From contig OZ237747.1 in NCBI GenBank assembly GCA_965178125.1, positions 930,001 through 994,000 of the forward strand: a DNA stretch of 64,000 bases. Reading direction: 5' to 3'. Below are positions 1-61,277 of the stretch, in pieces. The stretch's first letter is position 1, and each line of letters opens with the position of its first letter. This stretch comes from Bilabrum cf. latius (lineage: Eukaryota). Below the pieces are notes generated by a model. The model did no database searches and was not told the DNA's origin. It saw only the letters and a list, made by a program, of their open reading frames with translations. A program made the position numbers and the translations under genes.

Positions 1-2391
1 CTACAGCGAGTTGAGAGCCTGCATGAAGTCAGAGTGGATGGTAGACAGCGAAGCACCGAGGACTCGGCCCCGCGCTCCGCCGGTGCTCATCGTTCGGATG
101 GGCGAGAACTGGCTGACGGTGTCGGCCACTTCGCGGAGCTCCCTTGCGCGCTGTGCCATTGCATCCAGGCGCGCGAACAGCGCAGTTGCTTGGAATCGCC
201 ACGCAGCATCAGGCACCTCAAACACGGACCTTGCCTTGTAGTCAAAGTACACAGACCGGAAGCGCGCACAGAGCCCGAGGACCTGTTCCATCGCCTCTTG
301 CGCCTTGGTCGCTTCCTAATCCCCCAGCAGCTGCACGCCGCGTGTCGCCCTGGTGCAGACTCGGATGATAGCGTTGCTGATCTGCCGGAAGAGTACCACC
401 ACGCGAAGCGGTCGGCGGTAGGTTCCCTCGCCGTACTTCCATGCCAGCTGCACGATGTGCACGATGGGGCGGAGCAACTCCTCCGCCTGGCCAGTGCTGC
501 TGGCGGCCTCAAGTTGCTCGGCCCAGGGCCGCAGCGGCTCCAGCAGCTTGGCAATCTTACGAGCGGTGTCACGGGACCTGATCAGCTCAGCGCAGAGCCG
601 TCCAAACGAGGACTCGTAGGCAGATCTCGCCTTGGCGAGCACCTACAGGACCCGCCTCGCCCTCGGGCTGGCTAGTTGCTCTACGATCGCGTCGAGCCTC
701 ACGACCTGACCCGCCCAGAAATCCAGCTCGAAGGACGGTCCTGGGTGCCTGCGACGGTCACAGCACGGTGGCAGCCCCACGTCCAGCATGGGGGCGCCTT
801 CAGGAACGTTCTCTCCCTCGGGCTCCCTTCGGAGCACCCTGTGAATGGCCCTCGTCCAAGACAGCACCACCTGCTCCAGCACGTGGACGATCTGCCGGCG
901 TCTCGACTTGCTCGACTTCTTGCCTGGCTGCGTGGCACTGCTCGCAGTGGAACCCATCGATGGCACGGGGTTGCGGGCAGGTTCCATCCCGCGAGACGGG
1001 CCGCCAAAGGCACCCGCGCTGCCGTGGATGGGGGGAAGCGTAGGCACCCGGGAGGAAGTCGACGGTGACGGTGCTGGCTGCCGGTTGCCCGCCCATGCGC
1101 CACCGCGGACAGCCTCGCTGAACGTGGGGCTGGCTGCAGAAGCCATAGACACAGACTCGCTGCCGTCACCGCCGGCCTCTCCGGTCGCTAGATCGAAGAG
1201 AACGTCCGGGGAATCCGGCATGGACAGAGGCTCCCTGCCCTGCGTGCGGCCTAGCGCAGTGTCCAGGGATTGCGCAGCCACTTCCGCCTGTCTCACCACC
1301 TGCGCCCCTAGTGCCGTGCTCCAGGTGCTCCTGTTCTTGCGATTGCGCAGAAGGGGCAAATACACCCGGCTGGTGACGAGCTATAGCTGCTGCAGGGCGG
1401 CCACGCCTGCCAGACCTCCGCCCATCTAAGCCGCCGATTCCCAAGCCTGCCGAGCAACCCTGCTGCCCCTCTGGGCCGTACTGCGAGGACCCCCGCGCGC
1501 TGATTCGCTGCCCCAGCTGCCCACCGGTGCCCGGGCAGGAGGGAGGGGGCCGCTCGTAGACCCACGAGACCCGCCATTCGGAGTCCAATGCGAGCTAGAC
1601 CCTGCACCTGCCCCAGCCCCTGCCCCAGCATCGGCCCGGCCAGCACCGGTGCCGCCTTGGAGGGCGAGGGCAAGGGGATGCATCGAAGCATTACCACCAA
1701 GAGGATCGCCGTCACTTGCAGCCGCTTCTCTAGCGCTAGCGAGCGGACTATCGGGACGTACGCTGCCCGCCACAGAGCTGCTCGCTCCGTCCCGCCTTGC
1801 ACTGCTGGCAGGTGCTCCAGCTCTGAGTCCCTCTTCCGCTGCATCTATGGCCTGGGCACTGGCCAGCGAGCCGACAACGACCTCTACCTCAACGTCCTCT
1901 TCTGTGAGAGGCCCTGCATGCAGTTTATACACGTATACGCACCTTGCAGGTGGTGCATCTGCCGGTACGGATCCTCGGCTAGCGTGCGATCCAGGCGCAC
2001 GTCCTCCTCCGCTTGCTCGCTTCCACCGCTTGAACGCAGCCCCCACGGCATACACGAGAGAGCGTCCGTCCATGGTTGCAAACATCCCGCCACCTGCAGC
2101 CTCACATGCGTACAGCACGCGGCTTGGCCCATCGCTAAACTCAGATGCAACTCGATTGAATTCGGCGGAGCTCAGAAAAGCGGATAGCCCAGCAGGCTCA
2201 GTGCTGTCTCCGGCGAACGCACCAACATTTGACGACTCCTATGTTGTTTCAGATGAGGTGAGAGACCGCATGACGGATCGAATGGCGGATGCGATATATG
2301 AGCACCTCCTATCCGATTGATTGAGTGACCGACGGCTTGTCGCAGCTGTCCCGACGGACTTTCTGTCGTCAGCATCACCCACTGATGACAT
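1..2391 (-). CDS. Axonemal dynein heavy chain, N-terminal (DHC_N1) region; continues beyond the window start
   Basis: One frame from ATG 2391 (upstream in-frame TAA at 2401-2403) joins track ORFs 1426-2118, 643-1365, 316-642 and 1-291. It is broken only by TAG at 2239, 1426, 1381, 643, 316 and 1. Motifs VYLPLLxNxxNxxxW, VHVLEQVVLSW, HPGPSFELDFW, VVLFRQISNAII, LFARLD and GGARG are typical of outer-arm dynein heavy chain tails. Confidence 0.85.
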
Positions 2392-2930
2392 ATGGCTACT
2401 TTACAATCCAACAAATCGGCGGTTCTTTCAAGCAAGCCGTCCACCGTTTCGGAGGAAATCTTCCTGACTCGAATCCGCCAGCAACTTGCCTATTGAGGAA
2501 ATCTGCTTGGCTCAAATCGAGCAGGGCTGCGGCAAAGCACTGCCTATTGTAGTCTCCAGTTGAAATGTACCAACGACGCCTGCAATCAAGATTGGTGGAA
2601 CGGCACAGGCCTGATCAATATACAGCCGTTTGGTCGCCGCTTTGGTGGTGTGGCCGGTCGCAACCATTGTGCGACCGGGCAAGGCGGGGTGCTGTGCTGC
2701 CGGCGTGCAGCCGACTATTGATGTGCGAGATAGTCATGGATGCCCCAGTCACAGCATGTTCACATAAACAAGATTTGCACGGACAGGTGATTGCTTTGAA
2801 ACGTCCGCTGTCGCCGACGGCGTTGCTTTCAGTTGGTGGTTGCTTTGCCAGTTGAGTGAACCTTCACGAAGCCGCACCAACAGATGCAATTGAATTTTGT
2901 GGCGTCTGCCCTACATTGGTGGGAATTTAC

Positions 2931-5900
2931 ATGTACATGCTAGATCGTGACTATTAGAATGTAAGGTAGGAGCGGGAAGCGGCCGATAGGCATCATGCTC
3001 GCTTGCGTGCGCAACAAACTGCGAGCGAAGTCAGACAGAGCGGTTTTGGGTTGCCGGTGCGAAGACTACCAAGTACCGCCGTAGCATTTGGCAGCTCTGA
3101 AGGTCGTAAGAATTCTGGTTTCAAATAGGGAATTGTTGGTCGCGACAAGCCTCGGTCATCGCGCAAAGCCCGCAAGCCAAAGCGATTGAGCAACCAGAGA
3201 CGATCCAGCCGAGTGACCCAAGGGCAGAGGCATCAGACGGCCAGTCCGAATGGATCAGGAACCATCAGAATGCGAGTGTCAGCTACTCCAAGTTCCGACT
3301 CGATGTGGGGTCTGGGCGCGCTGGGAGGCACACTGCACAGTCAAACAGGTCCAACGTCCGCTGGCCGCTCCACAGCGGGACCCAGCATAGCGAGAAAGGG
3401 CAGGGTGCGGTCGATTCAGGGAAGAACGGGGGGCTTGGTAGCCAAGCAGCAGCCGCTGCGAAGCCTCGCCACCACCTTCGTGCCGTCGGACTCCATACCT
3501 CTGGACCCGGAGTCGCTCCACGAGCTCGGCCGCCTGGCCCGCCAGAGGAAACGAACCGCGAGCTCGAGCTCGAGCCACAGAAAGAGGGGGGCGAGAACGA
3601 GTGCCACAACCGGTCGCAAGCGCCGGGGCTCCCCAGTCCTCATCGCGACTCTGCCGAGCCCAAACACGGCAGCATGCTCCCCCCCACCGAAGAGCAAGGG
3701 CAAGGGCAAGGGCAAGGGCTCTGGCAAGACGAAGAGGATGGTCAGACGGGCCAGAAACAGCACAAACAAGACGCGAATTTCAAAGCAAGGACCGAAGCGA
3801 ACCCAGCGTGCCGCAAGAGCGACCAAGGCCGGTGCCGCGGGTTCCGAGCTGCAAGCCGTGATTGCCGCTGCAGCGACCGCTGCAGTGCGCCAGGCTCTCG
3901 GCATGCATTCAATTGCAGTGCAATCTGACGATCGCCTAGAGCAAGCTTCCGGTCCAGTATCCAACGCTTAGCCCAAGGCCACGGGAGTCACTACCGGCCC
4001 TTAGCCCAGGGCCACGAGTGACTCCCGTGCGAGCGAGACAGCTGCCGGCCCTTAGCCCAGGGCCACGAGTGACTCCCGTGCGAGCGAGACAGCTGCCATT
4101 CACGACAGAGAAACGGGCGGGCAACTGAACCAAGAAGGTAACGGGGGTGCGGGGCGGTACAAGGACGACTGGGAGGTCGAAGGTGGCGATCAGCGGGAGG
4201 GCAGCAGCAGGCAGGGGTACAGCGGCAGGATCCATGCAGCCAAGCTTCTGGAAGAAAGATCGGCCCGTATGCTGCAGGCAGCGAGCGCTCTCGCCTCTGC
4301 TGCTGCCCTTCGAGGGCAGCTACAGGGGCCTGTCGCCATGTAGCACGACAGGCAGCAGCACAGGGCGCAAGTCGAGGCTGATAGGATGCTGCAGCAGCGA
4401 GCACCAGCAGGCCGCATGGCTTCGCCGCTGTCCGTGTCGCCTGGCCCCTCTGCCGGCGTTAGTCCTGTTCCTGTTCGCGGCAGAAGAGAGGGAGAGGTAG
4501 ACGTGCGGGGAGTGGCAGCACCTAGCGCGAGTGGCTCCGCTGCTGTCGCAAGGGATAACATGGATGGCGATGAGGCCTCCCCGAATGGCGATGAGGCCTC
4601 CATAAACGGCGATGAGGCCGCACCGTATGTTGGCTCGCGGCTCTCTATCCCGCCTCTTCCAATTCCAGAGCCGAAGCCTAGCGGTCCCAGCGTGGGCGGC
4701 TCGATGTAGTCAAGTCGGCGTTCCCACAGCGCCAGTGCCAGCGCAAGCGAGGAAAGGGGGACAAGCCGGACAGGCTCCGGCGTGGAATCATCCGACGCCC
4801 GCTCGAGACCAAGCGCGCGCATGGGGTCTGCAAGGAGCAGCACTCGAAGCCAGGCGAGCCACCGATTTGACGAAGCGCGCAGGAGAATCAGCAGGAGCAC
4901 AAGCGGAAGCCAAGACGGTGGGAGCCTTCCGAATGGTTTGCACGCCAGCCGTGGCGTGGTCGAGTTCGCTCCCGGCAGCAGCGATTCGGAAGGGCGCAGG
5001 GAGTTGCGCAGGGAAGGCTGGAGGGTCTTCGCGCCCATGATTCCACCGTCAGAGCAGCCGCACTCTGCGCCAATAGATCGCAGTGCTCGAGGCAGCATCG
5101 AAGAGAGCAACGCAGACCCTAGGAAAATCGCGCAGTCTGCACCGGCATCCCCTCGAGGCAGTCTCAGCCTGAGCAGCAGCGGATCCGATGGTCGATAGGC
5201 AGCCAGCGAGCCCATGATGGCTGCCTCGAGCGGCGTTCCACAGCAGATGCCGGGGTCCCTCTACAGCGCGAGGCGATCGCCCGATCCATCCGACCAGCGG
5301 GCACGAGCGTCAGAACCTACCGGCGGCAAGCAGGTGTACAACGTGTCTGCCCGCCCAGTCGAGGGTAGCTTCTCTTCCTCGCGACGGGGGGCACAGCAAG
5401 GCAGATCAGGCAGCAACACGAGCAATGGCAGGAGCAACAGGTCGAGGCGATCGAGACGGAAGCTCAAGCACTTCGGCGACAGAGCTGGCAAGGCAGAGCA
5501 GGGACTCCAGAGGAACAGCCGGAGTGTCCGTAGGGGGAGCGCACGGAGCAGAAGTCGGAGCCGGAGCAGCGCTTCTCGGTAGAAAGCGATGGTATACGAC
5601 GTTGAGGTGTCTCTTCCTGACGGGGTGATGCCCGCCGGGACGCCGAATGCGTCGTCTGGCTCTAGTTCCAGGATCAGGGGACGATCCAGGGCCAGCTCAA
5701 TTCATGCGGCCGATGGAGTCGCGGGGAGCTCTGCACGAGGTAAAGTCGAGGACATTGTGGATGATGGGACTGGGCGTGGTGGCAGGCAGGCAGACACGCG
5801 GGCGGACGACCTCTCGAGCATCCAGTACGGAGTAGATGGCCGGTCGTACGAGTTTGCCTCAGTTGGCGAGAGCGGCATTGAAGATGCGAACGGGGTGCTG

Positions 5901-6761
5901 CACACGTTGGATGGGACACGATCCGCGGTTTCGCCGAGGCAAGTGCCTGGCCGAGAGAGCTCCGAGGGGCCGCTGGCGGCAGGCCGTGGGAACACCCGAC
6001 GGGGATCCGCGCACAGCCGACACGACGCGATCAGCGAACCTTCCTTCAAGGCAGCCGAGAATACCAAGCGAAAGAAGCGGCTCGATTTCCTCGTGGAGAT
6101 GTCGAGGGAACACGAGGAGGCCCTCGAGGCGCTGGCGCAGGAGCTCCGCCTCATCAAGCTGCAGGCCGAGAAGACCGACGAGGCCCGGAAACAGGCGCTG
6201 CTTCGTGCGGTCGAAGAAGCCAGGGAACAGCAAGCGGCACTGAGTGCGAGCATGCGGAGGCTGGGGTACAGCGAGGGCCAGGCGATGGGGCGGGCGCAGG
6301 GGCTGCTGGACGGTGCTGCCGCGGGCCTGAGTCACGCGGTGGCTGCGCATGACGTGGCGAGCGGATCCATCGGTTTCGGGGGTGTATCTGCCGCTGCTGC
6401 TGGCGTTGGCGCGGGAAACTCTCGCAGGATTGCGTTTGGCGACGAGGAGCAGCTTCAGCTCGGTGTCACCGCAGGAGGGCCGACTCAGCAGGCTAGCAGA
6501 AACGGAACACCAACGCGGGCCAGTGGGCGACTTGGATCTCCAGCTCGGTCGGGTGGGCATGCGCTGGATGCCACGCTCGGATCGGACTATTATTCGCGTA
6601 GGACTCCTGGCTGGGTGGGCTCTCCGATCGTACGATCGCCGGCCCAGAGCGTCGTTGCTCCGCCAGCGCGACTCGAGCGGCACGGCAATCAGCAGAATCC
6701 TCTGCAGCTGGACGCGGCACTGCTGTCCGCGAGGCTCGTCCATTGGAGCATGAGTAACTAA
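2931..6761 (+). CDS. Large (~1270 aa) low-complexity Ser/Arg/Gly-rich protein with a C-terminal coiled-coil; function unknown
   Basis: Single frame from ATG 2931 (or 2937) to TAA 6759-6761, joining ORFs 3186-3971, 4386-4709, 4782-5198, 5214-5582 and 5589-6761. There are ten in-frame TAGs (2955, 2967, 3126, 3969, 4002, 4053, 4341, 4707, 5196, 5580) and no TAA or TGA. Coiled-coil-like segment EHEEALEALAQELRLIKLQAEK. Confidence 0.7.
3995..4096 (+). repeat. In-frame 51-bp tandem duplication inside the CDS
   Basis: Two identical copies of cggcccttagcccagggccacgagtgactcccgtgcgagcgagacagctgc, each carrying an in-frame TAG. Confidence 0.9.
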
Positions 6762-6911: not shown

Positions 6912-7460
6912 ATGATCTCTGTAGACTCAATGCTTCGATTCTCAGTATTTCTTACATTTGTGGGCCACGGCGGGATCGCGTTGATGGGGGGCTCCCCGAA
7001 ATGGCGGAATTATTTGGCAACCGCTGGAATTCGCGAACACAAGGCCTAGACGACTACCTTCTTCGCTGTTGGGCTTCTTGACGTCGTGGTGGCCATTGTA
7101 TGCTTGTTTGTATGGTGTCCTGTTGAAGTGATAACTTGGGCTGCCGCCTGGGGCTGCGCAACTGCCGCGATGCGACCTCTTTCGGGAGAGAATCTTCTCG
7201 AGTTCGTGGAGCGTGGCGGCAATTTTGTCCCGGCCATGGCTCTCGTGAATATGGTGGCATCGAATCAAATGACATCGTCGCTTCTGGGCATTCGTGGGCC
7301 AGCAATGGCAGTTTTGGCAAGGTCGCTCCTGCCCCCGATTCTGGTTGGCAATCTGTCGAACGGCGTGCTCGCCCAGATGGTCGTGTTTGTGGGCTATCTG
7401 GTCGTGCTGGGATTGATCAGCGTTGCACTGCGAGCCATGGGCGGCATCAAGCGCAATTGA
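6912..7460 (+). CDS. Small multi-pass membrane protein resembling bacterial DoxX-like hypothetical membrane proteins
   Basis: ATG 6912 to TGA 7458-7460 with one in-frame TAG at 7047. Motifs LRxxxxxxFxGHG, W..Y...GI, GLLD and WGxATAxMRPLSGExxxEFVERGGNF, plus hydrophobic helices. AATAAA at 7473. Confidence 0.7.
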
Positions 7461-7551: not shown

Positions 7552-8613
7552 TCAAGATGACCCCTCCTTGCTCTCGGACGAACCAGCACCCTTCTTTCCC
7601 GATGCGGCGTCCTCGTCCTCTTTCTTGGCAGCCTCGGCCCCCGCTACGATGCTCGACCGCTCGAGCGCGCCCGCACCCTTTGCGAGGTGGTCGATCTCCT
7701 TCGCGCCGTCGAGGGCCGCTCCCGCCCCCGCTGGGATAGGCATGCTCGCTTCAACCTGTCGCGCTGATGGCGCCGGGATGGTGACCCACACCTTGCCGTC
7801 TTTCGGGGGCTACAGCACCCACCCGAACGGCTTGCAGCAGATCTCATCGAAAGAGTCCTTTGCCAGTCGCAGGATTCTAAGGGCCTCGTCCAGCTCGATA
7901 GTTTCAAAGCTGCGCGCGATGTACGCGATTGCCCGCCCTCTTACGATACCGATGGTGTTCCTTGCTAGAGCCTGCAGCTGCTCGGGCCAAGACTGGCTGG
8001 TCAATGCCTGCAGGCAGGCCGCTGTGTCGCTGCGGCAACTGGCGATAGCGATCGAGATGGAACACGAATACAGGAGGAAATGAAGAGCTATCAAAGGATT
8101 CATCTTAACTTCATTTTCTCACTTTCGCCGGAGGGCCCTTGCTGCTTGGTAGGCAGACGCAAACTCCTTCCTATCCCGTGTGGCGGTCGTAGCCCGCTCG
8201 TGGGTAAACCGAGCTTCAGGGCTGCGAAATCACAATTTCATGGATACTTAACAGTCGACATAGTAGAAGCGATGCCTGAGGTCGGCTCTATGTTTTGTCT
8301 TGAGCAGCTCACATCGTGTTGTTGCAGATAGCACATAGAATCTACGCAGTTTGAGCTCTTGCTACGACAGCCGCTGCCAGAGGAGGCTATGTCTGCGAAG
8401 CACCGTCAAATAAAAGGAACAAACGGATTCAGGGCCCACAGTCCACGGATGGGGCATAGATGTGAAGATGGCGCTCACCAGCTCAAGTTCGTCTGCGAGA
8501 GGGCCCATGACCGCTGGTTCACCTGCATGAGAAGCTGCCTGAAACTGCGCCAGCCGCGTCTCCACCTATTGTTTGTGTCCACTACTGCCTGATGCTGCCG
8601 ATGCGGACGCCAT
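7552..8613 (-). CDS. CSN8: COP9 signalosome subunit 8-like (PCI/CSN8-PSMD8-eIF3K family), intron-containing
   Basis: ATG 8613 to TGA 7552, with in-frame TAG at 8566 and 7810. The spliced model gives ELEL...ASLLLCRLPEARFTHER...AYQAARALRRNDTAACLQALTSQSW...RGRAIAYIARSFETI...GW, which follows the CSN8 pattern (ELE / ARYLWKR / W / RAFALVSQAYTSI / GW). Candidate GT-AG introns are 8030-8122, 8222-8252 and 8276-8312, plus one upstream. Confidence 0.65.
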
Positions 8614-8737
8614 TTACGCACAGATATACCTAAGAACGCCATGATCCAAAGTATGAATTTAATACTATTGCACGTAACATTCACTCGTCATTCAATTGTA
8701 GCAGAGCCAAATTCCAGATTTGGCACCGCTGCGACTC

Positions 8738-10969
8738 ATGAGAGATATAAGTAGCCTTGTAAATCAGCTCTTGGGGTTACTTAATGGAAGCCTAACGCTG
8801 ACACTAGAGAGGGGAGGCCATGGACGTTGGCTGGGAGAGGCAACTGCGAAGTGCAGCCGAAGCTTGCTGTAGAGAGCTGCAAAGCTTGCTATTGAAAACT
8901 TGCCAAAGTCGAAATCCTCCGACCAACTTTGGAGTACAATGAAAGCTCGTTTAGTGGCTGCGATGTCGCGAAGCTTAGGCGATGAATTCGCGGCATCCGC
9001 TGCTTCGAGCGCAGATTCCAAACCATCCGCCAAATCGAAGGCGTTTTTGGCTTTGGCTTCTCTCCTCCTGGGGATTGGACATGGATTTCCCCCAGAAAAT
9101 GTGTCAGAGGCGATGCAAGCAGTAGTGACTGCTGCAAAGGGAGCTCGAGCATCCTCTGTAAGTGATGCGGTGCCGGCAAAGACGGCTGCGACACCCGGGC
9201 AGAGCAGTGCCAGGGCGCTTCGCAGAGCTATCCAGTCACAGGTAGAATGCCACGGTCGCTGTGCCGCCCGGCTAGCGGTGGGAGCCCCGGTCAAGCAGCA
9301 GCAGCTGTCTCTCGCGAATGGTTCCCAGCCGGCTGGATCTGCTGCTCCTGCCGACAGCTCCACGGCCCAAGGAGGTGCAAGCGGTGGTGTTTCAAAAGGA
9401 AGCAGCGGCGCCGGCGGCGATACTTCACAGCCTGCACCCCCCAGCACCGCAGCGACAAGTAGCAGCGGCAAAGGTGGCAGTGGGAGCGCTATAATCGCCG
9501 AGAGCAGCAGCAAGAACGCGGCGCGGCCTGCCCCCCTGTCGGAACCCCTCGCCGCTCTGCCCTGCTTTTGCGACGCCCGTCAGGGACACGCTTGGATGAG
9601 AGACGCGTGCGTGTGGGGAGCTGCTTTCGCCGACGAGATCCTGCAGCTGGATGCCCTCAGGACCGACGGAGGGGGCAGCTCTGCCAGCACTGGCGGCGCT
9701 GGTGGTACCCCCGCCGCTGCCGCTGCCGCTGCCGCTGCCACGGTAGCAGCCGAGGCAGCCTCCTCTGCTGGATCCATCACGAGCTCCAAAGGTAGCAGCA
9801 CTGGCAAAATCGAGTCTCTGATCGGCATCGGTGTGGCCCCGCCTCCCACAGCCAACCAAGTCCGCATCCGGGCGGCGACGGCGAGGGACATTGGCACCGT
9901 GATGCGCTTCGTCCACGAGCTGGCTGAGTTCGAGCGGGCGCCCGATGACGTGGCGACCACGGCACGGGGGCTTCGATTGCTGGCCGCAGCTAGGGGTCTC
10001 GGCGGAGAGGGCAAGGGTCAGGCGGAGCAGATGACCACCGCACCGTCCTCCTCTTCCTCCTCTTCCTCCTCTTCGTCCAAGTCATCGTCGGCTGCCAGCG
10101 CCTCCTCTTCCACGGCGTCAGTCGGCAGTTCTGGCGGCCCCGGCAATCCCGACGTCGATTTCATGCTCCCGGGGGACAAGGAGGACAGCGACCAGGGCAT
10201 CGCCTTCTCGTCTTCTCAGTTTCACGTCATGATCTGCGAGGAATTGGAGCTGTCCGCCGGCGGCTCTGGTAAGGCCTCCGATGCCCAGGCCCCCATGGAT
10301 GGGTCCTTAGAGTCCGATGCAGCTGGCGAGGATGTGGAGCAAGAACCGAGCGCAAAGCGGGCGAGAATTGATGCCGGTCCTGCCGCTGGGGATGGCAAAG
10401 ACAGCTCAGACGGTGGCGCTGGCGAAGGCGATCAGCCGGAAGGCTCCGGCTCGCGAGCGCCTGGCTCTACCGCGGGTGACGGGTGGAAGCCCGTAGCCAT
10501 GGCGTTTTTCTATCCCACTGTAAGCACTTGGAAGGGCCGCTGCATGCACTTAGAAGACCTCTACGTGAGCCCTTCCCACCGCAGGTCCGGCATCGGGACT
10601 CGGCTGATCTCGGCGGTGTGCGCGGCAGCTTCGATCAGTGGTTGCGCGAGGGTGACCTGGCAGGCCCTCGACTGGAACACGCCTGCCGTGAAGTGCTACC
10701 ACAGACTAGGCGCCACTGAGCTGAAGGAGTGGATGGATTTCAGGCTGGAAGGTGCGGGTGTGCACAAGGTGGCTGGGCTGGGCGCAGATGGTCCGGTGGC
10801 TGCGGGGGCACCCTAGTAGGGAGAGCTGGCTTCCCCAGGAGAAAAGAGGACGAGGGGGGGAATATCGGCAGTGGGCCCTTCGCTGCAGGGCGGAAGAGCT
10901 GTGAGCAAAACAGCCTTCTCAGCTGCGGCACGCAAGGTGCAGGATTGTAAGCCTGCCTAGGGCTGGTGA
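8738..10969 (+). CDS. GNAT N-acetyltransferase, diamine/spermidine acetyltransferase (SSAT/SAT2)-like, with long low-complexity extensions
   Basis: Motifs IRAATARD..MRFVHELAEFER, FYPTVSTWKGRCMHLEDLYVSPSHRRSGIGTRL and WQALDWNTPAVKCYHRLGA. The frame runs from ATG 8738 through TAG 8870, TAG-TAG 10814-10819 and TAG 10958 to TGA 10967-10969. Confidence 0.85.
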
Positions 10970-13807: not shown

Positions 13808-13899
13808 TGTTCTATTTATTAGGATTTAGTCCGCTATACCAAAGAATTCCGGTGAATTGACCTAGCAACCAGTATGGTGCAACTCGCGCGCGATCCCCT

Positions 13900-13960: not shown

Positions 13961-14122
13961 ATAAATACTGCTACGGGGCGGATTCAAACGCACGCTAATT
14001 TTGGGCTATCTTATGTGTGGAGAGCAGTAAAATGAATCCAAACTCATATTGGGGGGGCACTCATCACACCAAAATTCTTGAAGAGGGCGTTCGCGGAATC
14101 TCTCCGTTAAACAACACAGAGA

Positions 14123-43761: not shown

Positions 43762-43793
<32 letters not shown>

Positions 43794-52538: not shown

Positions 52539-53438
52539 CCTTGGGTGCACACGGCTCGCAATGCTCGAAGTGCCCCGCCTGGCTCCATTGGCGCCTGCGT
52601 CTGTAGCATCGCGCCCGACTTGCCTGTGACTGTCGATCCTTCTGTTGACGGCATCTGGATGGGGGAAACATTTACTCTCCTCGTCTGTCCACCCGTCTCC
52701 CGATTTCTCCCTGCCAGTGGGTGCCACCACCCCAGTGCAAGTGGTGCTTCTTCCTCCTCCAACTTGTCCACCTGTCTTCCCCCATCGCCTTCATATCTGC
52801 CACACCCACGACTTGATGGCTCATCCGAGCTCCCTGTCCAGTGCGCTACCTCAGCGGCCCTGCCTTGTACTCGGAGATGCAGGGCACTGCAAGCCCTCCG
52901 GAGGATCGGAGGATTTTAGCTTCAGAGATTAGATAGAGCTGGGCTAACCTTGGACTCCAGCTTCGATGGATCGATTCGTACTTTATCATTGATCCCCATG
53001 ACTCCATGCAGGCTGTATTCGTCCTTGCTGCAGAGGCGCAGAGAGGGACAGGGTCAGCAATACTTGCGAGATCACGGCATGCAAACGCCCTTCAGCCAAG
53101 AGCTTCGATCGTGAGTTTGCCCCCTTGTCTGAGATCAGCTTGACATGCCATGTCGATGATACCAGCGGCTGCTTTGGTACTCGCGTAGCACTCTTGCAGG
53201 AGGGTGTAGCAAGCCGCCGTTCAGTTCGCTTCTGCAATCGCTGCGGGCAAGGTCGATGTGGCCGAGCAGCAGCTGTACGAGAATGCCGCTCTTCTGGCTG
53301 GGTGGAGCGGTTGTGGCGTCTTGCTTCGGGTGCAAGTGCGCTTGACTGCACCGAATGGCGATGTGTGTAGGTTGATAGTGAGAAACAAGCTGTAGACTGA
53401 GTGGATCGCTTTCCGTTGCATAGATTGGCTGCATCCGT

Positions 53439-54518
53439 ATGTTGTGGAATGTGATATCCATGCACTCAGGTACACTCATGTCTGGAATGCATCGTGGCAT
53501 GCGACAGTGTTGGGCTGCTCGGCAAGCTGCTTCGACATCCATCGGCAGTTGCACACGTGAGGCATTTCAAGTTGCAAGTTGCTGCCGTCCGACCAATATC
53601 CTAGGTTTGATCCGTGCTCCATTGAATCACGATGAGTATTGGATTTGTTCTTGGTGCTTCTCGCAGCCGCTGGAATGGGCCCTTGCATTCAGCATGCGAC
53701 CGGTGGCCTGCTTCAGCCTGGAGTGCGCTTGGCATCTTCTGCTTGCGGGAGCTGGAAACGATCCGTGGCAGAAGATCGACTGGTGGAGAGCTCTCAGTGA
53801 GCCGGATAAGCCTTCGAATCCTTGGTATGTGGCAGGGCATGATGCGGGATATTTCGGCAACCCTTCTGGAGCTGCCTTGCTGCTGCGTTGGGGCCAAGAT
53901 CAATGGAGGCAGGCAGTGGATAAGTTCCCTGGGACTAAAACGTGGTCCAATGGTTTATCTTATGGATTGCATTGTAGGATTGGTGATGACGATGACACTG
54001 AAATCTGTCGCAAGGATTTCGAAGATCGTGGCTTGGGGCATTTGCTCGCTGCAAGGATCAAGGACAACCCGCGCCACATCCTGCGGAGGCTCTTCGAGAT
54101 CGCACCTGACGGCGTGCTGGATCCTGTGAAAGGCCTGGATCCTCGCCGGGCCGATGCAGTCATCCGCTGGAGGCGGGCCCATGAGGCCCACAGGGACGCA
54201 AGCATGGTGTTCCGGGCGGCGAGCGAGGGCAGGCCCATGGAGCTGGAGAAGAGGCTGAGGCTGGGCAAGCTGGCGGGTGGGCTGACCCGGACGGGCCGTG
54301 TGGGGTCTGGTGCATGGGGAGCAGCAGCGGTGCGGCTGCTGAGTCCAATGGAGGCGGCTCGTGTGGGGGGTCATGGGAGGTGTGTGGCTGTGCTGTAGGA
54401 GGCGTGGGAGGGGCAGGCGACTGGCAGTGAGGGTGCTTGTGAAGGAAGGGGTGGGGCTGGGTCAGGGGGTGCGGCAGTGTCGAACTCGCTGATGCGGCTG
54501 GGTCAGACCACGAAATGA
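53439..54518 (+). CDS. Array gene A2 copy 8
   Basis: Paralogue closest to copy 1, with a 6-bp insertion (FQVASCC). Confidence 0.55.
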
Positions 54519-55728
54519 GTCGGATTTGAGTGCGTATTCGATTAGGAAGCTGTTCGGCCACATGCGGCGGCAGAAAGGAGCGGCATGCGTTCCTGCCCGC
54601 ATGCTGTTGCCGCGGAGTGCTGCATCCGTGCTTCGGGCCTGTGTTGAGATAGTCTGTCGGCGGTTGCAGCCGCTGGAATCGACAACTGCAGTGCGAACAG
54701 CATCTTGAGCACGTGAGAGAGGTTGCAGTCCGTTTGCGGGATGTACGCTTGTTGACTTCGTTCAGAATCAGTTGCAATGGACGGCAGCGCTGGTAGTGGC
54801 AGTCAGCCGTCTGGTCTGCTTGTCAAGCGGGCCAGAGAGGCCACGGCTGCAGGTGAGGCGGAGAGTGGCAGTGGCGCGGCGCAGTCCGCAGGGACGCCCT
54901 CGGGCAATTCACTGACGCGACTCACAGCACGGTCGTTCCCCGAGACTGGCAGTGGATCCGTGGGTGCTTATCTGCAGGATCCGCGAGCATTGGTGGGTTC
55001 GGGTGAGTCGGCGCGATCCAGCGGTGCAAGGAGCGCTGGCCTGCCTCAGTTCGAGGAGCAGCCGCCGCCCAAACGGGGACGCATCGACTCAGAGAAGAGT
55101 GGTTTGTGTTTTGCGGCGAACCTCCGGCGTCCACGGCCAGCCATCGGGTTGCAGTACGGCGGCAATGAGGCAGCAAGCTCAGCCATGCAGCTCTAGGTGC
55201 GGGAAGCCTTGGACCGCCAAGTCCACCGGAAGGCAGCTCAACTGCGCAGTCATGGGGAGCAGTCGTCTGGTCCTGCCAGGGGGCATGTGGAGTCGCCACA
55301 CGGCCTCCTTGCGAGTCATGCACAAGGTGCAGGCATGAGGCCGTCAGATGGCGGAGCATCAGGCAGCTCATCATCTGCACGGCCACGCCACAGTGAAGGG
55401 AAGCAAGCAGGCGCCAGCAGCCCGGCATCTAGGCCTGGGCGCTCTCGAATGGGATCGTCTTGCGGTGCTGGGCGTGACCGGGCGGACGGGGCCTCGGATC
55501 TTGGAAGTGGCTACCTGGACGATGCAGAGGGGGGCACGAGTGGCCAAAGTGGGATGGAGTCGGGCGATGAGGATCTGTGACCTTGGGTGCACACGGCTCG
55601 TAATGCTCGAAGTGCCTTGCCTGGCTCCATTGGCGCCTGCGTCTGTAGCATCGCGCCCGACTTGCCTGTGACTGTCGATCCTTCTGTTGACGGCATCTGG
55701 ATGGAGGAAACGCTTACTCTCCTCGTCT

Positions 55729-55975
55729 GTCCACCCGTCTCCCGATTTCTCCCTGCCAGTGGGTGCCACCACCCCAGTGCAAGTGGTGCTTCTTCCTCCT
55801 CCACCATGTCCACCCGTCTCCCGATTTCTCCCTGCCAGTGGGTGCCACCACCCCAGTGCTAGTGGTGCTTTCTTTTCCTCCTCCACCTTGTCCACCCGTC
55901 TCCCGATTTCTCCCTGCCAGTGGGTGCCACCACCCCAGTGCTTCCTTTTCCTCCTCCACTTTGTCCACCCGTCTT
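55729..55975 (+). repeat. Second 3-copy expansion of the same ~79-bp unit
   Basis: gtccacccgtctcccg starts at about 55729, 55808 and 55890 (periods 79, 82 and 73 bp). Confidence 0.85.
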
Positions 55976-56611
55976 ACCCCATCGCCTTCATATCTGCCAC
56001 GCCCACGACTTGATGGCTCATCCGAGCTCCCTGCCCAGTGCGCTACCTCAGCGGCTCTGCCTTGCACTCGGAGATGCAGGGCACTGCAAGCCCTCCGGAG
56101 GATCGGAGGATTTCAGCGGATCAGACTAGATAGAGCTGGGCTAACCTTGGACTCCAGCTTCGATGGATCGATTCGTACTTTATCATTGATCCCCATGACT
56201 CCATGCAGGCTGTATTCGTCCTTGCTGCAGAGGCGCAGAGAGGGACAGGGTCAGCAATACTTGCGAGATCACGGCATGCAAACGCCCTTCAGCCAAGAGC
56301 TTCGATCGTGAGTTTGCCCCATTGTCTGAGATCAGCTTGACATGCCATGTCGATGATACCAGCGGCTGCTCTGGCACTCGCGTAGCACTCTCGCAGGAGG
56401 GTGTAGCAAGCCGCCGTTCAGTTCGCTTCTGCAATCGCTGCGGGCAAGGTCGATGTGGCCGAGCAGCAGCTGGTCAGGCCTTGTGCGACCGCCCGCTTGC
56501 GGAGCAGCTGATGTCCTGCGACTTCGTTTGCAGTGTGACGATTGCGTCAATCAGTCCGCCATCAGCAACGCATCGGTGCAGAAGCACTTCCTCGGCCAAA
56601 ACTACAACAAG

Positions 56612-59600
56612 ATGCTAGCTTTGATTCTCATCGTTGCATGGATGGTAACTTTAATGCATGTATCGGCCGATGATAATCTTGATGCCGGAACACTTCGTGG
56701 TGCAAGGGTCCAACTCGGCAGCTTGCCAATGACTCATTGGAACCGAAGTCAACCAGCAAAGCAACGCAAAGTAAGTTATCACTCGGATCATCCGGCGAGC
56801 AAAATCAATTGCAATCGAGAGATTAAGCGCCGTGCGAAAAGTTGTGATTGATTCAGCGCCAATTTCTGCATCTTGAGGCCGCCAATCCCGAGCCCATCAG
56901 CAGGTACAACGCTTGTGCAACTGCCACTATTTGTCCTGTTCTATCCAGGGGCTTCTTTACCGCATGTACTATTCAATCTTTGCCATATATCTCCAGCAGC
57001 TTTCGTCCGCGGCCGCCAGGTACAATGGGACCGTCCGCGCGTGGACCCACCTATCAGGCACCCATGGCACTCTCCCTTCCGTCTCTCTCACGGCCTATGA
57101 CGATTTTGCCGAGGCGGTGGCATACTTGGGAGATATCAACTCAGATGGATACCCAGACATTGCTGTTGGTGCACGGGAGGACGACGATGGCGGCGACGAC
57201 CGCGGGGCCGTCTGGATCCTGTTCCTGAACCAGCAAGGGGCCCTCAGTGCGGCATAGAAGATCAGCGACACGCAGGGAGGCTTCACTGGCGAGCTATCTA
57301 ATCATGTTTGGTTCGGTTGCGCGCTGGTGGCCCTCCCTGACATGGACTCGGACAGCGTGCCGGAGCTGGCGGTGGGCGCACGGGCTGACAACGACGGTGG
57401 GGCCAACAGAGGCGCAGTGTGGATATTATTCTTGCGCTCTGCTGGAACTGTAAAGTCGCACTAGAAGATATCGAGCACCCAAGGAGGATTCGGTGGGACG
57501 CTGTCACTCGGTGACTACTTCGGAGCTTCTCTAGCCCTTTTGCCTGACCTGGACTCAGACGGGATCCGGGAGCTGGCTGTCGGTGCTGTGCGAGCGAACA
57601 ACCTCAAGGGCACGGTGTGGGTGGTATTTCTGAATGCCGCCGGAACGGTCAAGGCCCAGACAGAAATCACTCAGAACACGGGTGGGTTCACTGGTGCTGT
57701 AGAGATATCTGACTGGTTCACGTGGTCCTTGGCCGCCTCAGATGCTGCTGTCGTGGGACCCAACGGAGCAGGTGCCCTGACGACCCTTGCTGTGGGTACT
57801 CCGAGTGACGACAGCAGTTTGGGAGGGTATGATCAGGGCGCAGTTTGGCTCTTGTCGCTGTCCAGCAGCGGCGCTGTGGTTGCTGGGCCGTCTGCACAGG
57901 TCAAGATTTCCTCTACGACCCCGGGCATGGAGGGCCAGCTGCAGAACGGCGACTATTTCGGCAGGTCTGTGATGTGGCTGCCTGACCTGAACGGAGACGC
58001 CCGGCAGGAGCTCGTGATTGGCGGTCCGGACGCTGACCTTGGAGGCTTGTCCACATCTGGCGCACTGTGGGTGCTCGGCCTGTCAGCCACTGGAAGCATT
58101 AGCTCCCTGCAGAGGATCGGCGGCGCTGGAGGAGGCGGGCACGGATTTCTGCACCCAGATAGTCGCTTGGGAACTTCTCTTGCCGTGCATCCCGGTAGCT
58201 CGTCCTACCCCGATTCCTCGCCGTGGAGACACCCCGTCGTGTTTGCAGGCATGCCGGCAATCGGAACCAACACCATACAAGACACGGGGCATGTATGGCT
58301 GTTGCAGCTCGTTGCTGTGCCAGAAAGCGCCTTGGAACCTGCGACAGTCATCACGGGCAGCAAGATCAGTGACACGCAGGGAAACTTCACCGGTGGCATG
58401 CAGAACCAGGAGTACTTCGGGAGTGCGGTCGCCTCTATCCCAGACATCGATGGCAACGGTCAGGGCGATATCGCTGTTGGATCACCGTACCGTGACCGCG
58501 GAGGATTCAGCTAGACGGGCGTCGTTTGGGTCTTGTTTCTGTAGTCGGACGCGGACGGAGGTCCGGGCCAGGTCCTGGGGCACCAAGAGATCGAATCGGG
58601 CCAAGGCGGGTTTCCGGGTACCCTGCAGTACAACGACTGGTTCGGCAGCGCCGTTTCCTGGGTACCTGGCGTGACGGATGCCGCCGGTGCTTCTGTGGGG
58701 GAAGGCGCCCTGGCTGTGGGGGCACCTGGTGACAGCGGGCCCAGTGGTGGCGACCGGCACGGCGCAGTCTATTTGCTCTTCCTACGCGCCGACGGGTGGG
58801 TCCTCTCGCACCTCAAGATCTCGCCGCAGAATCCCGAGAGCGGCTTCACTGGAACTCTTCAAAACGTTGACATATTCGGTGCGGATCTTGCAGCCATGCC
58901 GGGGCTGTTGCAAGCCGCAGGTGGGTCCGACTCATAGGTGCCCTACCTCGCGGTAGGCGCACCTGGTGACAATGACGGCGGTACCGATCGAGGAGCAGTG
59001 TGGCTTCTACAGCTGTAGACTGTCGGTGGTGCAGTGGTATCCCACCGCAAGATAAGTGACTCTGCGTCGAATGGCATGCTGAACCAGCTCGACGACGCAA
59101 ACAGCTTTGGGTTCGGCCTGTGCAGCATGGGAGATATTGATGGAAACGGTGCTCAAGACCTGGCTGTTGGCGCACCATTCCGGGAGGACATCGCCGGAGG
59201 CGTGAATTAGGGTGGAGTGTGGGTGATGTTGATCTCACCCACGAGCAGCTAGGCGATCCAGTCGCGGGAATACATTGGCGTTGGGAGCCCGCACGGGCCT
59301 CTAGAGCTGGACGATTGGGCGGAGTTTGGCAAGGCCCTCACCTTGCTGCCTGATCTTGATGCAGACGGGGTGCCAGAACTCGCAATTGGAGCCAACGGAG
59401 ACAGTGATGGAGGGTAGTACACGGGGGCCGTGTGGCTTGCCTTTTTGGCGACAACGGGGGCTCCCAAGCAGCAGGTCACCAAGCTGTCCAGCACAAGTGG
59501 CAGAATGACGGGAATCGTGGATCCGCAGGTTGGATCGCGATTTGGTGATGCACTCGCGGTGCTGTCAGGTACGTCGGATGGTGAATGGTCTTCGCCTTGG

Positions 59601-61277
59601 CTTGCAGTCGGTTCCAGCCGTGACTCGGATGGGGGGCACCAGCGCGGGGCCGTGCATCTTCTCAAGTTGAAAGCAGTGAGGCCGTCCCCATCGCCAACGT
59701 CTTTGCCCATTCCGAGCGTGAGACCCACTCCGGGGAACACCCTCACATCCTCCGCGAGTCCTGCCGCCTCCCCAAGGCCACGGATTCCAGAGATCGATAC
59801 GAACCGACCGTTGATGGCGCGTGTCCTATTCAGCGCCCCGTTTGATGCGGAGCACCTCAAGCCTTGGAACTGGAACCAGAAAACACCCGTTGTTGATGGT
59901 TCCGGTAATGACACGGCCGAACAGACCATCGTGCCAACCACATACATCTTTCGCGGGGCGCTGCTGGAAGCTACTGGCCTGAATGGCTGGGCAGATCTGC
60001 TCGGCCGCGTGTCGCCGGGAGAGTTGCATTCATTTGCACCAGAAGACAGATACGGGCCGACTGCGCACGCTGTTTTATTCAACGTGTCAGCCTCTGGGCT
60101 GGGGGGTCCATTCGGAGACGACGACGGGTTTCCAATAGATGAGGGCGATGATAATGGCGGAGTTGCCGACGATGATGGTGGATCAGGTAACCTATATCCA
60201 TCCCCCCATTTTACCACTGGACCAGTGAGAGTACCGCTTTCAGTGGAACCTGGCAGGAGGCTGTAGACTGACGATGATGAGGGCGGGGAGCCTGTGACCT
60301 TCGACGACACGACCCGGGCAATCGATATACTGCGCGCCATGGACGAAGCCTTGGCGGGACTGTTCGTGCAAGGCACCAATGTGTCGTCTGCGGATGGCAT
60401 TGATTTCCTTACCGTACACGGGGTTCGGCTAGCCAGATACTGCGGCTGCGGGTCTGAGATGGTTTGGGGCGAGCTGTTGCCTGACGGGAGCTGGACCTGC
60501 CCTGAGGAGCCAAAGGCGAGCATGGGGGCATTTCACTGGGTGACGATGGTCCTAGCGGGGCTTGCGGTGTGGGCGCCTGCCGTGCTGGTACTATTGCACC
60601 GTTCAAGCAGGAGCGGGGCCCTGCTTCTGTTCGGTGCCATGCTGCAGCTTGCTGCCATGGTGGGTACGGGCGGCTTGCTGTACGAACTAGCTATTGAGTG
60701 GATCTGCGAGAACGAGAATTATGCAATTGCTTGTGGATGCGCCCTTGGCGTCGGTGCTTTTAGCAACCTGATGCTGTGCAACAACGTCGTCGAGAGGCTC
60801 CGGAAGCTGGACGAAGGCTACTGGAATGAGCAGTGGCAGCTGGCCCTACCTTTGATGTTTCTGCTAGGCCCGAGCGGAGTGGGCTGGATGGAGGTACTGG
60901 TGAGTGACATTGGCAGTTTGGATCTGTTTGGGCTGCTGCGAGGCAAGCATGCGGAGCGCGAGACCTATTTGCAGGCGGCACAGTGCCAGCACTGGCCATC
61001 GCTGCTAATGAGCCACGGCGGACATTTGGCAGTGCAGATGTGGTTCCTGTTTGAAGGAGTCGTTGAGAGCGGGCGAGATGTGAATCTGACCCTGGGGCTG
61101 GCCATTGGGCTGACAGGAGGCTGCATGGTATGGCGGCTCCTGATGGCGGTTGTCGATATCGGGGTGCCGGAGGTTGTGCATGGGCACCGGAGGGCTGCTG
61201 CGGGGGCTGCTAGCAGTGGCCACGGAAGAGCAGACAAAGCCCGGAGCGTTGCTGCAGCGAGGGCAGAGGGTGTCTAA
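56612..61277 (+). CDS. Cell-surface FG-GAP (integrin-alpha-type beta-propeller repeat) protein with a Pro/Ser/Thr stalk and a multi-pass C-terminal membrane domain
   Basis: About 12 repeats of FG..xA..xDxDxDG..ELAVGA..DG..RGAVW. The main frame from ~57000 to TAA 61275-61277 has TAG at 57255, 57462, 58512, 58542, 58935, 59016, 59208, 59250, 59415 and 60264. A probable first exon starts at ATG 56612 (signal peptide MLALILIVAWMVTLMHVSA) with a GTAAGT donor at 56771. Several hydrophobic helices follow 60530. Confidence 0.85.

What the first reader, a model, noticed from the sequence alone, without database searches (positions are those of the whole stretch)
1..61277. Variant nuclear genetic code: UAG is a sense codon (probably Gln) while UAA and UGA remain stops
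Seen: the dynein (6), 2931-6761 (10), membrane protein (1), CSN8 (2), GNAT (4), HDAC (5), BCAS3-like (12) and FG-GAP (10) genes all contain in-frame TAGs. Their exonic frames have no internal TAA or TGA and no frameshifts. Located gene ends are TAA (6761, 19630, 61277) or TGA (7460, 7552, 10969, 11060, 19754, 33853), never TAG. Established: most eukaryotic stop reassignments move UAA and UAG together; UAG-only reassignment is rare, with reported cases in the fornicate Iotanema spirale (Gln), an uncultured rhizarian (Leu) and some phyllopharyngean ciliates. Inference: this GC-rich flagellate, whose Ala/Gly-rich proteins give me a tentative impression of a bicosoecid-like stramenopile, may be an independent and possibly undescribed case.
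Basis: partly seen in the sequence, partly recalled or inferred. Interest (0 to 1): 0.95.

Follow-up and report, generated by a model that had tools for sequence, protein, structure and literature searches.

The report
UAG read as glutamine, nuclear code
This GC-rich eukaryote's nuclear genes use the stop codon UAG as an ordinary codon, most likely for glutamine, while UAA and UGA still end genes; this is a rare genetic-code variant, and the organism that carries it here could not be identified.

Summary
Six large reading frames (7089 codons) contain 47 in-frame TAG, 0 TAA and 0 TGA. The other two frames of the same DNA hold 111 TAG, 48 TAA and 232 TGA.

The TAGs are in mature mRNA. A gene with three spliced introns keeps four in-frame TAGs, and a 5519-nt contig with transcript-like ends carries all 12 TAGs of another gene unchanged.

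Glutamine is the best reading.
- One TAG in a histone deacetylase lies where 124 of 150 homologues have Q and none has S.
- Two TAGs in an FG-GAP protein lie where bacterial homologues have Q in 264 of 313 and 298 of 356 aligned residues.
- In all three well-aligned comparisons with close relatives where one side has TAG, the other has CAG or Q.

All nine located gene ends are TAA (3) or TGA (6). The code equals NCBI table 15.

Relatives at about 85-92% and about 50-70% protein identity also carry in-frame TAGs, so this looks like a clade trait.

The serine variant (Scotinosphaera) and the UAA+UAG variant are not supported. The organism is unidentified. No tRNA or eRF1 could be examined, because no genome is held.

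The parts
1..2400 (-). N-terminal part of an axonemal (outer-arm beta-like) dynein heavy chain. The gene runs off the window start. 6 in-frame TAG.
   Evidence: Pfam DHC_N1, E 1.2e-52. The best PDB match is the Chlamydomonas outer-arm beta chain, E 4.5e-45. TAG sites.
2856..6761 (+). Low-complexity protein of 1301 codons stop-to-stop, with 10 in-frame TAG. It ends at TAA 6759-6761.
   Evidence: RNA-like contigs cover 2924-3684 and 4607-6305 with no differences. No Pfam family.
6912..7460 (+). Small hydrophobic protein with 1 in-frame TAG (7047-7049). It ends at TGA 7458-7460.
   Evidence: no Pfam family. Contigs of X6 and X7 start at 6933 and 6892.
7552..8613 (-). CSN8-like gene with three GT..AG introns (8393-8478, 8222-8312, 8030-8122). 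The spliced frame holds 4 in-frame TAG. The stop is TGA 7552-7554.
   Evidence: Joints are present in X5, X6 and X7 and absent from DNA run X1. Spliced frame. Pfam CSN8_PSD8_EIF3K 24.8 bits. Splice sites.
8678..10969 (+). GNAT acetyltransferase with 5 TAG stop-to-stop. It ends at TGA. Its codon CAG in the motif ...VTWQALDWN... is TAG in the relative L001.
   Evidence: Pfam Acetyltransf_1, E 2.5e-14..
11060..13825 (-). HDAC8-like histone deacetylase with 5 in-frame TAG. It ends at TGA.
   Evidence: Pfam Hist_deacetyl, E 1.9e-52. PDB HDAC8, E 7.8e-33. RNA-like contigs cover 11197-14010 unchanged.
12443..12445 (-). TAG codon 461 of the deacetylase, at the conserved Gln of the ...VLQ.G.D... motif.
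   Evidence: 124 of 150 best homologues have Q, 0 have S. The relative L002 has CAG here, with 15 of 17 flanking residues identical.
14111..19630 (+). It ends at TAA 19628-19630.
   Evidence: An X5 contig of 5519 nt covers 14121-19636 with 0 differences and 0 gaps. Fragments from a relative end exactly before TAG 661 and TAG 1039. No Pfam or PDB match.
20000..56800 (+). Array of tandemly duplicated units of about 3 and 6 kb carrying three families of reading frames. In-frame TAGs are kept at the same columns in nearly all copies.
   Evidence: No Pfam family.
56877..61277 (+). FG-GAP repeat protein with a C-terminal hydrophobic region and 10 in-frame TAG. It ends at TAA 61275-61277.
   Evidence: Pfam FG-GAP, E 2.8e-47..
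57255..57257 (+). TAG codon 127 of the FG-GAP protein, at the conserved Gln before ...KIS...
   Evidence: Q in 264 of 313 aligned residues from 118 bacterial homologues.
57462..57464 (+). TAG codon 196 of the FG-GAP protein, in the same repeat column as codon 127.
   Evidence: Q in 298 of 356 aligned residues.
60264..60266 (+). TAG codon 1130 of the FG-GAP protein.
   Evidence: The 89%-identical fragment P0167 has Q here, and it ends at the same last residue as the TAA-terminated window frame.

Best explanation
The window is nuclear DNA of a GC-rich (about 60%), gene-dense, cilium-bearing eukaryote. Its cytoplasmic translation reads UAG as glutamine and keeps UAA and UGA as the only terminators. 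This code equals NCBI table 15.

Shown here:
- TAG is frequent inside expressed, spliced and conserved coding sequence.
- TAG occupies conserved Gln positions.
- TAG interchanges with CAG between relatives.
- TAA and TGA end genes.

Inferred from the known cases of this code, not tested here: UAG is decoded by a cognate tRNA-Gln with anticodon CUA, derived from tRNA-Gln(CUG) by one anticodon change. The release factor eRF1 has lost recognition of the G in the third position while still recognising UAA and UGA. In Iotanema spirale the eRF1 motif GTS has changed to GGS.

The trait is shared by at least two further lineages, so it arose before they split.
For: 1. Frame statistics. 47 TAG, 0 TAA and 0 TGA lie in frame in 7089 codons, against 111, 48 and 232 in the two other frames.

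2. Gene tiling. The frames bounded by TAA or TGA tile window 1-20245, leaving gaps of 455, 30, 91, 64, 90, 285 and 123 bases. They are therefore whole genes, not pieces of longer frames.

3. RNA.
- Three introns are spliced out in runs X5, X6 and X7 (two studies) and not in DNA run X1.
- The spliced message holds 4 in-frame TAG and a 263-codon frame ending in TGA.
- The contigs of X5 listed cover 27 further TAG sites. Only one base difference was reported in all 20 kb (12709), and it is not at a TAG.

4. Amino acid.
- HDAC TAG 461: Q in 124 of 150 homologues, then V 12, L 5, T 4, A 2, C 2, gap 1; no S.
- FG-GAP TAG 127 and TAG 196: Q in 264 of 313 and 298 of 356 aligned residues.
- Summed log-odds over the nine FG-GAP sites: Q +3.7, R +3.5, S -15.7, L -24.2. 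R is absent at the HDAC site.
- Well-aligned pairs with relatives: window TAG against CAG in L002 (15 of 17 context residues identical); window CAG against TAG in L001 (14 of 17); window TAG 1130 against Q in P0167.
- The relative has a run of four Gln codons followed by TAG TAG.
- In paralogue family A, 6 copies have TAG and 2 have CAG at one column.

5. Conservation. ORF fragments from an 84-92% identical relative stop exactly before window TAGs HDAC 279, FG-GAP 546, large-protein 661 and 1039. The syntenic metagenome contig L002 has 13 in-frame TAG, 0 TAA and 0 TGA in its 1046-codon HDAC frame, which ends in TGA.

6. TAA is a stop.
- CAA occurs 60 times and CAG 190 times, so about 15 in-frame TAA would be expected if TAA were Gln. 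None is seen.
- P0167 ends at the same residue as the TAA-terminated FG-GAP frame.
- The mRNA-like contig ends 6 nt after TAA 19630.
- Table 6 adds only short extensions into neighbouring genes or lower-GC flanks.
Against: - No tRNA gene lies in the window or in L001/L002, and no genome is held. The decoding tRNA and eRF1 are unseen, and there is no peptide evidence.
- Seven of the nine FG-GAP TAG sites fall in columns whose consensus in bacterial homologues is D, N, G, N, R, V or T, not Q. These columns also vary among the protein's own repeats.
- One pair in a weakly aligned stretch (6 of 17 context residues identical) is TAG against TCG, which is Ser. Other pairs in poorly aligned, low-complexity stretches show E, K, L, D, A, P, T, V and G.
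- The tool labels X5-X7 only as guessed RNA, and X5 as 'probably DNA'. The RNA argument rests on the spliced joints and on contig ends that match gene ends.
- Under table 6, frame 2856-6761 fuses in frame with the membrane-protein frame across two TAA. I read this as chance, because contigs of X6 and X7 begin at 6933 and 6892. That is indirect evidence.
- The GNAT frame has a TAG two codons before its TGA, so use of TAG as a terminator there cannot be excluded.
Confidence: 0.85

Rival explanations
1. UAG is a sense codon for a residue other than Gln. The obvious candidates are Ser, as reported for the green alga Scotinosphaera (which also keeps TAA and TGA as stops), or Leu, as in the rhizarian exLh.
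For: The stop usage matches the Scotinosphaera pattern (passages of PMC8271138). The best PDB match of the dynein stem is from a green alga. One weakly aligned pair is TAG against TCG. In class II deacetylases the motif position may be Ser; this is recalled, not tested.
Against: 0 of 150 deacetylase homologues have S or R at TAG 461; 5 have L. At FG-GAP sites 127 and 196, S accounts for 7 of 313 and 8 of 356 aligned residues. The summed log-odds are S -15.7 and L -24.2. Three of three well-aligned pairs with relatives are CAG or Q.
Confidence: 0.05
2. UAG has a dual meaning. It is translated as Gln inside genes but also ends some genes, depending on context, as stop codons do in Condylostoma or UAA does in Blastocrithidia.
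For: Gene ends on TAG cannot be seen when frames are read with TAG as sense. The GNAT frame has TAG two codons before its TGA. Only nine gene ends could be examined.
Against: All nine frames run on to a TAA or TGA that is followed by lower-GC, non-coding-looking sequence. The relative's GNAT ends at TGA within one residue of the window's TGA-defined end. Two dedicated stop codons remain, so no dual use is needed.
Confidence: 0.07
3. Both UAA and UAG are reassigned to Gln (NCBI table 6, as in ulvophytes, Amoeboaphelidium and many ciliates), with UGA the only stop. TAA would merely be rare because the genome is GC-rich.
For: Most known reassignments move both codons (passages of PMC11687900 and PMC5304391). 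Under table 6 the frame 2856-6761 joins the next frame in phase.
Against: 0 in-frame TAA against 60 CAA. Three genes end at TAA; for one, the relative's fragment ends at the same residue, and for another, the transcript-like contig ends 6 nt later. The relative's HDAC and GNAT frames also have 0 TAA against 13 and 3 TAG. Amoeboaphelidium genomes are about 40% GC (table 1 of PMC10608142), against about 60% here.
Confidence: 0.03
4. The TAGs are not translated at all. The frames would be pseudogenes or assembly errors, or the TAGs would be removed by splicing or RNA editing before translation.
For: None beyond the prior that in-frame stops usually mean broken genes.
Against: Only TAG interrupts the frames. 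The TAG sites are identical in four runs from three studies and are present in spliced contigs. TAG positions are conserved in relatives and among paralogues. No base differences were found at TAG sites.
Confidence: 0.01

Closest known systems
Iotanema spirale (Fornicata): UAG to Gln, with UAA kept as a terminator
   Same: The reassignment is the same, in a non-ciliate flagellate (passages of PMC9161772; PMC11687900).
   Different: Iotanema's closest sampled relatives keep the standard code, whereas two relatives here share the in-frame TAGs. The eRF1 change GTS to GGS known from Iotanema could not be looked for. Whether the window's organism is related to fornicates is unknown.
NCBI table 15 ciliates: Blepharisma, Protocruzia tuzeti and some phyllopharyngeans (UAG to Gln)
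   Same: The codon table is identical. Table 15 gives exactly the same long frames as TAG=Q.
   Different: The window is about 60% GC with 86-93 nt GTGAG..CGCAG introns. Its dynein stem matches Chlamydomonas (157 bits) better than Tetrahymena (113 bits). A ciliate origin therefore looks unlikely; this is an inference.
Scotinosphaera (Ulvophyceae): UAG to Ser, with TAA and TGA as stops
   Same: Only UAG is reassigned and both other stops are kept (passages of PMC8271138).
   Different: The residue differs. Ser is not supported at any conserved site tested, and CAG or Q is the partner in relatives.
UAR to Gln codes (NCBI table 6): other ulvophytes, Hexamita, Streblomastix, Amoeboaphelidium
   Same: A stop codon has become glutamine.
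   Different: TAA is not in frame anywhere here and it ends three genes.

Membership tests
UAG-to-Gln nuclear code (NCBI table 15) | UAG occurs in frame inside expressed protein-coding genes. | tested here: met
   47 in-frame TAG in 7089 codons. 4 TAG in an RNA-confirmed spliced frame. A 5519-nt transcript-like contig carries 12 TAG unchanged.
UAG-to-Gln nuclear code (NCBI table 15) | UAG aligns to glutamine in conserved orthologues. | tested here: met
   HDAC site: Q in 124 of 150 homologues. FG-GAP sites: Q in 264 of 313 and 298 of 356 aligned residues. Three of three well-aligned pairs with relatives are CAG or Q. The sample is small: six informative sites.
UAG-to-Gln nuclear code (NCBI table 15) | UAA and UGA still terminate translation. 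| tested here: met
   Nine gene ends: 3 TAA and 6 TGA. 0 in-frame TAA or TGA. A relative's fragment ends at the same residue as one TAA end. Table 6 gives no meaningful extension.
UAG-to-Gln nuclear code (NCBI table 15) | UAG is not used as a terminator. | tested here: inconclusive
   No gene end needs TAG, but only nine ends were examined and one TAG lies two codons before a TGA.
UAG-to-Gln nuclear code (NCBI table 15) | A tRNA-Gln with anticodon CUA is present. | not testable with these tools
   No tRNA gene in the window or in L001/L002. No genome is held.
UAG-to-Gln nuclear code (NCBI table 15) | eRF1 is altered in its stop-codon recognition motifs. | not testable with these tools
   eRF1 is not in the window, and no genome is held.
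UAG-to-Ser code (Scotinosphaera type) | UAG aligns to conserved serine. | tested here: not met
   S in 0 of 150 homologues at the HDAC site. S in 7 of 313 and 8 of 356 aligned residues at the FG-GAP sites, with summed log-odds -15.7.
UAR-to-Gln code (NCBI table 6) | UAA occurs in frame as a sense codon. | tested here: not met
   0 in-frame TAA against 60 CAA in 7089 codons. 0 TAA in 1378 codons of the relative.

The most novel reading that the evidence does not exclude
The window comes from an undescribed clade of GC-rich, cilium-bearing eukaryotes, with at least three lineages, two of them seen only in environmental or unlabelled assemblies. This clade would have evolved UAG to Gln independently while keeping UAA and UGA as stops. 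It would be only the second non-ciliate lineage with this code, and the first in a GC-rich genome. In such a genome AT-driven loss of the codon cannot explain the change, because GC pressure should favour TAG over TAA as a stop.
Probability: 0.45. Interest if true: 0.8.

Novelty: new member of a known kind. Interest (0 to 1): 0.7.

Why it matters
Nuclear codes in which UAG and UAA have different meanings are rare. The papers I read name these cases: Iotanema (Gln), one rhizarian (Leu), Scotinosphaera (Ser), and a few ciliates.

A further lineage with genome and RNA data, and with relatives at two depths that share the in-frame TAGs, would allow three things:
- dating the change;
- comparing eRF1 and tRNA-Gln across the transition;
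- testing whether GC-rich genomes reach this code by a route other than codon disappearance.

There is also a practical consequence. Gene callers using the standard code cut this organism's proteins at every TAG. The database fragments P0010, P0181, P0279 and P0280 end exactly at TAG sites. Its proteome is therefore mis-annotated wherever table 1 or table 11 was used.

Tried and rejected
- Whole genome: none is held. No genome-wide codon inference, tRNA search, eRF1 search or 18S placement was possible.
I did not send the dynein translation to any tool after that.

Searches that found nothing useful
- No tRNA in the window or in L001/L002.
- No Rfam family in the window.
- Pfam found nothing for the membrane protein, the three paralogue families or the frame 61825-62709.

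RNA runs
- No listed holder is on record as RNA. The RNA nature of X5-X7 is inferred from spliced joints only.
- Depth was not used to rank genes.

Taxonomy
- The atlas search with the HDAC core returned only generic deacetylase clusters.
- Cluster look-ups of 20 proteins named a few HDAC8-like homologues: Spiromyces, Blastobotrys, Ceratiomyxa, Vermistella, Corallochytrium and Cyanophora. That spread is too scattered to place the organism.
- The dynein search among longer proteins gave two unnamed hits at 33-35% identity.
- The Chlamydomonas-type poly(A) signal TGTAA is absent from 9 of 9 3' regions, so a chlorophycean affinity is not supported by that feature.
- Amoeboaphelidium was considered and rejected: its genomes are 40% GC and its code is UAR to Gln.

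Paralogues and weak pairs
- Variation at TAG columns among paralogues (CAG, TTG, AAG, GAG) consists of single-base neighbours and says little on its own.
- Pairs with the relative in low-complexity, poorly aligned stretches were not counted as evidence.

Literature
- Seven searches found no GC-rich non-ciliate organism with a UAG-only Gln code other than Iotanema.
- Subscription journals and supplementary files were not visible, so this is not proof that none is in print.

Full report
**What the window is.** It is 64 kb at about 60% GC. The first 20 kb and the last 7 kb are tightly packed with eukaryotic genes on both strands. Read with the standard stops, only one frame reaches 500 aa. Read with TAG as sense, eleven do, the longest being 1839, 1466, 1301, 921 and 800 aa. 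Reading TAA as sense instead changes nothing. Reading TGA as sense opens frames everywhere, as expected in GC-rich DNA, so it is not informative.

Pfam recognises the following:
- dynein heavy chain N-terminal region 1 (1-2400, minus strand)
- a histone deacetylase (11060-13825, minus strand)
- a GNAT acetyltransferase (8678-10969, plus strand)
- FG-GAP repeats (56877-61277, plus strand)
- weakly, CSN8 in the last exon of a spliced gene
- ankyrin repeats at 19757-20868 (minus strand)

That label is unconfirmed.

**The observation.** Across six frames totalling 7089 codons there are 47 in-frame TAG, no TAA and no TGA. Frames +1 and +2 of the same DNA hold 111 TAG, 48 TAA and 232 TGA. If the in-frame stops were random damage they would be mostly TGA. 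47 of 47 being TAG has a probability near 2e-26 (my arithmetic).

The frames bounded by TAA or TGA tile positions 1-20245, leaving gaps of only 30 to 455 bases. They are therefore complete genes rather than pieces of longer frames. 'Never TAG' is partly true by construction.

**The TAGs are in mature mRNA.** Eight public runs were listed for the stretch, and seven of them hold all or part of it. I laid four of them on window 1-20000.
- Runs X5, X6 and X7 (two studies) contain contigs that skip 8393-8478, 8222-8312 and 8030-8122. The boundaries read GT..AG on the minus strand.
- DNA run X1 does not skip them. The three runs therefore hold cDNA, although the tool labels them only as guessed RNA.
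- The spliced message has a 263-codon frame from ATG 8613 to TGA 7552-7554 with four in-frame TAG.
- In X5 a 5519-nt contig covers 14121-19636. That is the 1839-codon frame plus a few bases at each end, with no difference and no gap, so all 12 TAG are kept.
- The other listed X5 contigs cover 15 more TAG sites.
- Only one base difference was reported across the 20 kb (12709), and it is not at a TAG.

Splicing-out and RNA editing are thereby excluded for the sites covered.

**Which amino acid.** This needed a real test. The literature holds a case with the same stop usage but a different residue: Scotinosphaera reads TAG as Ser and stops at TAA and TGA (passages of PMC8271138). Four lines of evidence bear on it.

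1. *Deacetylase TAG 461.* It lies in the ...VLQ.G.D... motif. Among the 150 best of 4645 homologues from a full HMMER scan, the aligned residue is Q in 124, V 12, L 5, T 4, A 2, C 2 and a gap in 1. None is S or R.

2. *FG-GAP sites.* I masked the TAG sites and aligned the protein to 118 bacterial FG-GAP homologues (724 local alignments).
   - TAG 127 and TAG 196, which occupy the same repeat column, meet Q in 264 of 313 and 298 of 356 aligned residues.
   - The other seven sites fall in columns with consensus D, N, G, N, R, V or T. These columns also vary among the protein's own twelve repeats.
   - Summed log-odds are Q +3.7, R +3.5, S -15.7 and L -24.2. The deacetylase site removes R.

3. 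*Close relatives.*
   - Fragment P0167 is 89% identical and has Q at FG-GAP TAG 1130.
   - Two metagenome contigs, L001 and L002, come from a more distant relative (410 of 878 aligned HDAC residues identical). They keep the gene order: large-protein start, deacetylase, GNAT.
   - In well-aligned context the window's TAG 461 faces CAG in L002. The window's CAG in the GNAT motif ...VTWQALDWN... faces TAG in L001.
   - That relative also has four Gln codons followed by TAG TAG.

4. *Paralogues.* In family A, six copies have TAG and two have CAG at one column.

Against Gln stand one pair TAG against TCG in a weakly aligned stretch (6 of 17 context residues identical) and assorted residues in unalignable low-complexity regions. 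I put Gln at about 0.85 to 0.9.

**TAA and TGA are stops.**
- CAA is used 60 times and CAG 190 times. If TAA shared the meaning of TAG, about 15 in-frame TAA would be expected, and none is seen.
- The relative's frames show 16 TAG and no TAA in 1378 codons, and they end in TGA.
- P0167 ends at the same last residue as the TAA-terminated FG-GAP frame.
- The transcript-like contig ends 6 nt after TAA 19630.
- Under table 6 the frames gain only 7 to 108 codons, running into neighbouring genes or lower-GC flanks.
- One case needs a caveat: 2856-6761 joins the next frame (6792-7460) in phase across two TAA. Contigs of X6 and X7 begin at 6933 and 6892, just before that frame's first ATG at 6912, so I read them as separate genes. 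This is indirect evidence.

Table 15 reproduces the TAG=Q frames exactly.

**A clade trait.** Database ORF fragments from a relative at 84-92% identity were called with a standard code. They end exactly before window TAGs at HDAC 279, FG-GAP 546, large-protein 661 and 1039. Of five window TAG sites covered, four are kept and one is Q. The more distant relative uses TAG even more heavily: 13 TAG against 29 CAG and 11 CAA in its deacetylase. In the window TAG makes up about 16% of presumed Gln codons (47 of 297).

**Mechanism.** Shown: the codon usage, its expression and its alignment to Gln. Inferred from the known cases: a tRNA-Gln with anticodon CUA, which by wobble rules reads UAG but not UAA (passage of PMC11687900), and an eRF1 that no longer recognises UAG. 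In Iotanema the eRF1 motif GTS is GGS (passage of PMC9161772). Neither molecule could be examined.

**Who is it?** This is unresolved.
- It bears cilia, because it has an outer-arm-type dynein. The best PDB match is Chlamydomonas at 157 bits, against Tetrahymena 113, trypanosomatid entries 101 and 91, and human 81.
- Its introns are 86-93 nt and read GTGAG..CGCAG.
- It lacks the TGTAA signal in 9 of 9 3' regions.
- It is not Amoeboaphelidium, whose genomes are 40% GC and whose code is UAR to Gln.
- A ciliate looks unlikely, given the GC content, the introns and the dynein match.
- The stramenopile guess could not be tested.

**Novelty.** The code itself is known. A new bearer outside the ciliates would be only the second for Gln. 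Seven literature searches found no matching organism. I could not see subscription journals or supplementary files, and the runs that hold the sequence date from 2025, so it may already be under study. I rate it a new member of a known kind, interest 0.7.

Noticed in passing
window 20000-56800: This is a mosaic tandem array. Eight copies of a reading frame of about 376 codons start at 22732, 25768, 28821, 34705, 37855, 40886, 47225 and 53382. Three full copies and five tail-only copies of a 774-codon frame, and three copies of a 437-454-codon frame, are also present. The units are about 3.0 or 6.1 kb long. None has a Pfam family. In-frame TAGs sit at the same columns in nearly all copies. I did not establish what these genes are or whether they are expressed.
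   Followed up: partly
window 56877-61277: The best homologues of the FG-GAP protein (38-50% identity) are bacterial: Planctomycetota, Gammaproteobacteria, Actinomycetia and Latescibacterota MAGs. The eukaryotic gene adds a C-terminal multi-pass hydrophobic region with no Pfam family. Whether this reflects gene transfer was not examined.
   Followed up: no
window 14121-19636 and 7485-8614: Transcript-like contigs begin 2 nt before the first ATG (14123) and end 6 nt after the TAA (19630) of the 1839-codon gene. Convergent genes leave only 90-123 bases between their stops (10970-11059, 19631-19753). Untranslated regions may be very short or overlapping, but contig ends are not mapped RNA ends.
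   Followed up: no
window 3994-4097; 46374-46620; 55728-55974; 62727-62923; 63600-64000: These are short tandem repeats with periods of 51, 79-82, 49 and 111 bases. The 51-base repeat duplicates a 17-codon block, including its TAG, inside the low-complexity gene.
   Followed up: no
L002 1-4256 and L001 1-2958: Two metagenome contigs from different records are 99.5% identical over 2493 bases. They keep the window's gene order (large-protein start, deacetylase, GNAT) at 56-57% GC. This relative therefore occurs in at least two environmental data sets.
   Followed up: partly
window 2856-7460: The low-complexity gene and the following small membrane-protein frame are in the same phase, separated only by two TAA codons ten codons apart. 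I read this as coincidence, but it is the one place where read-through of TAA would produce a fused product.
   Followed up: partly
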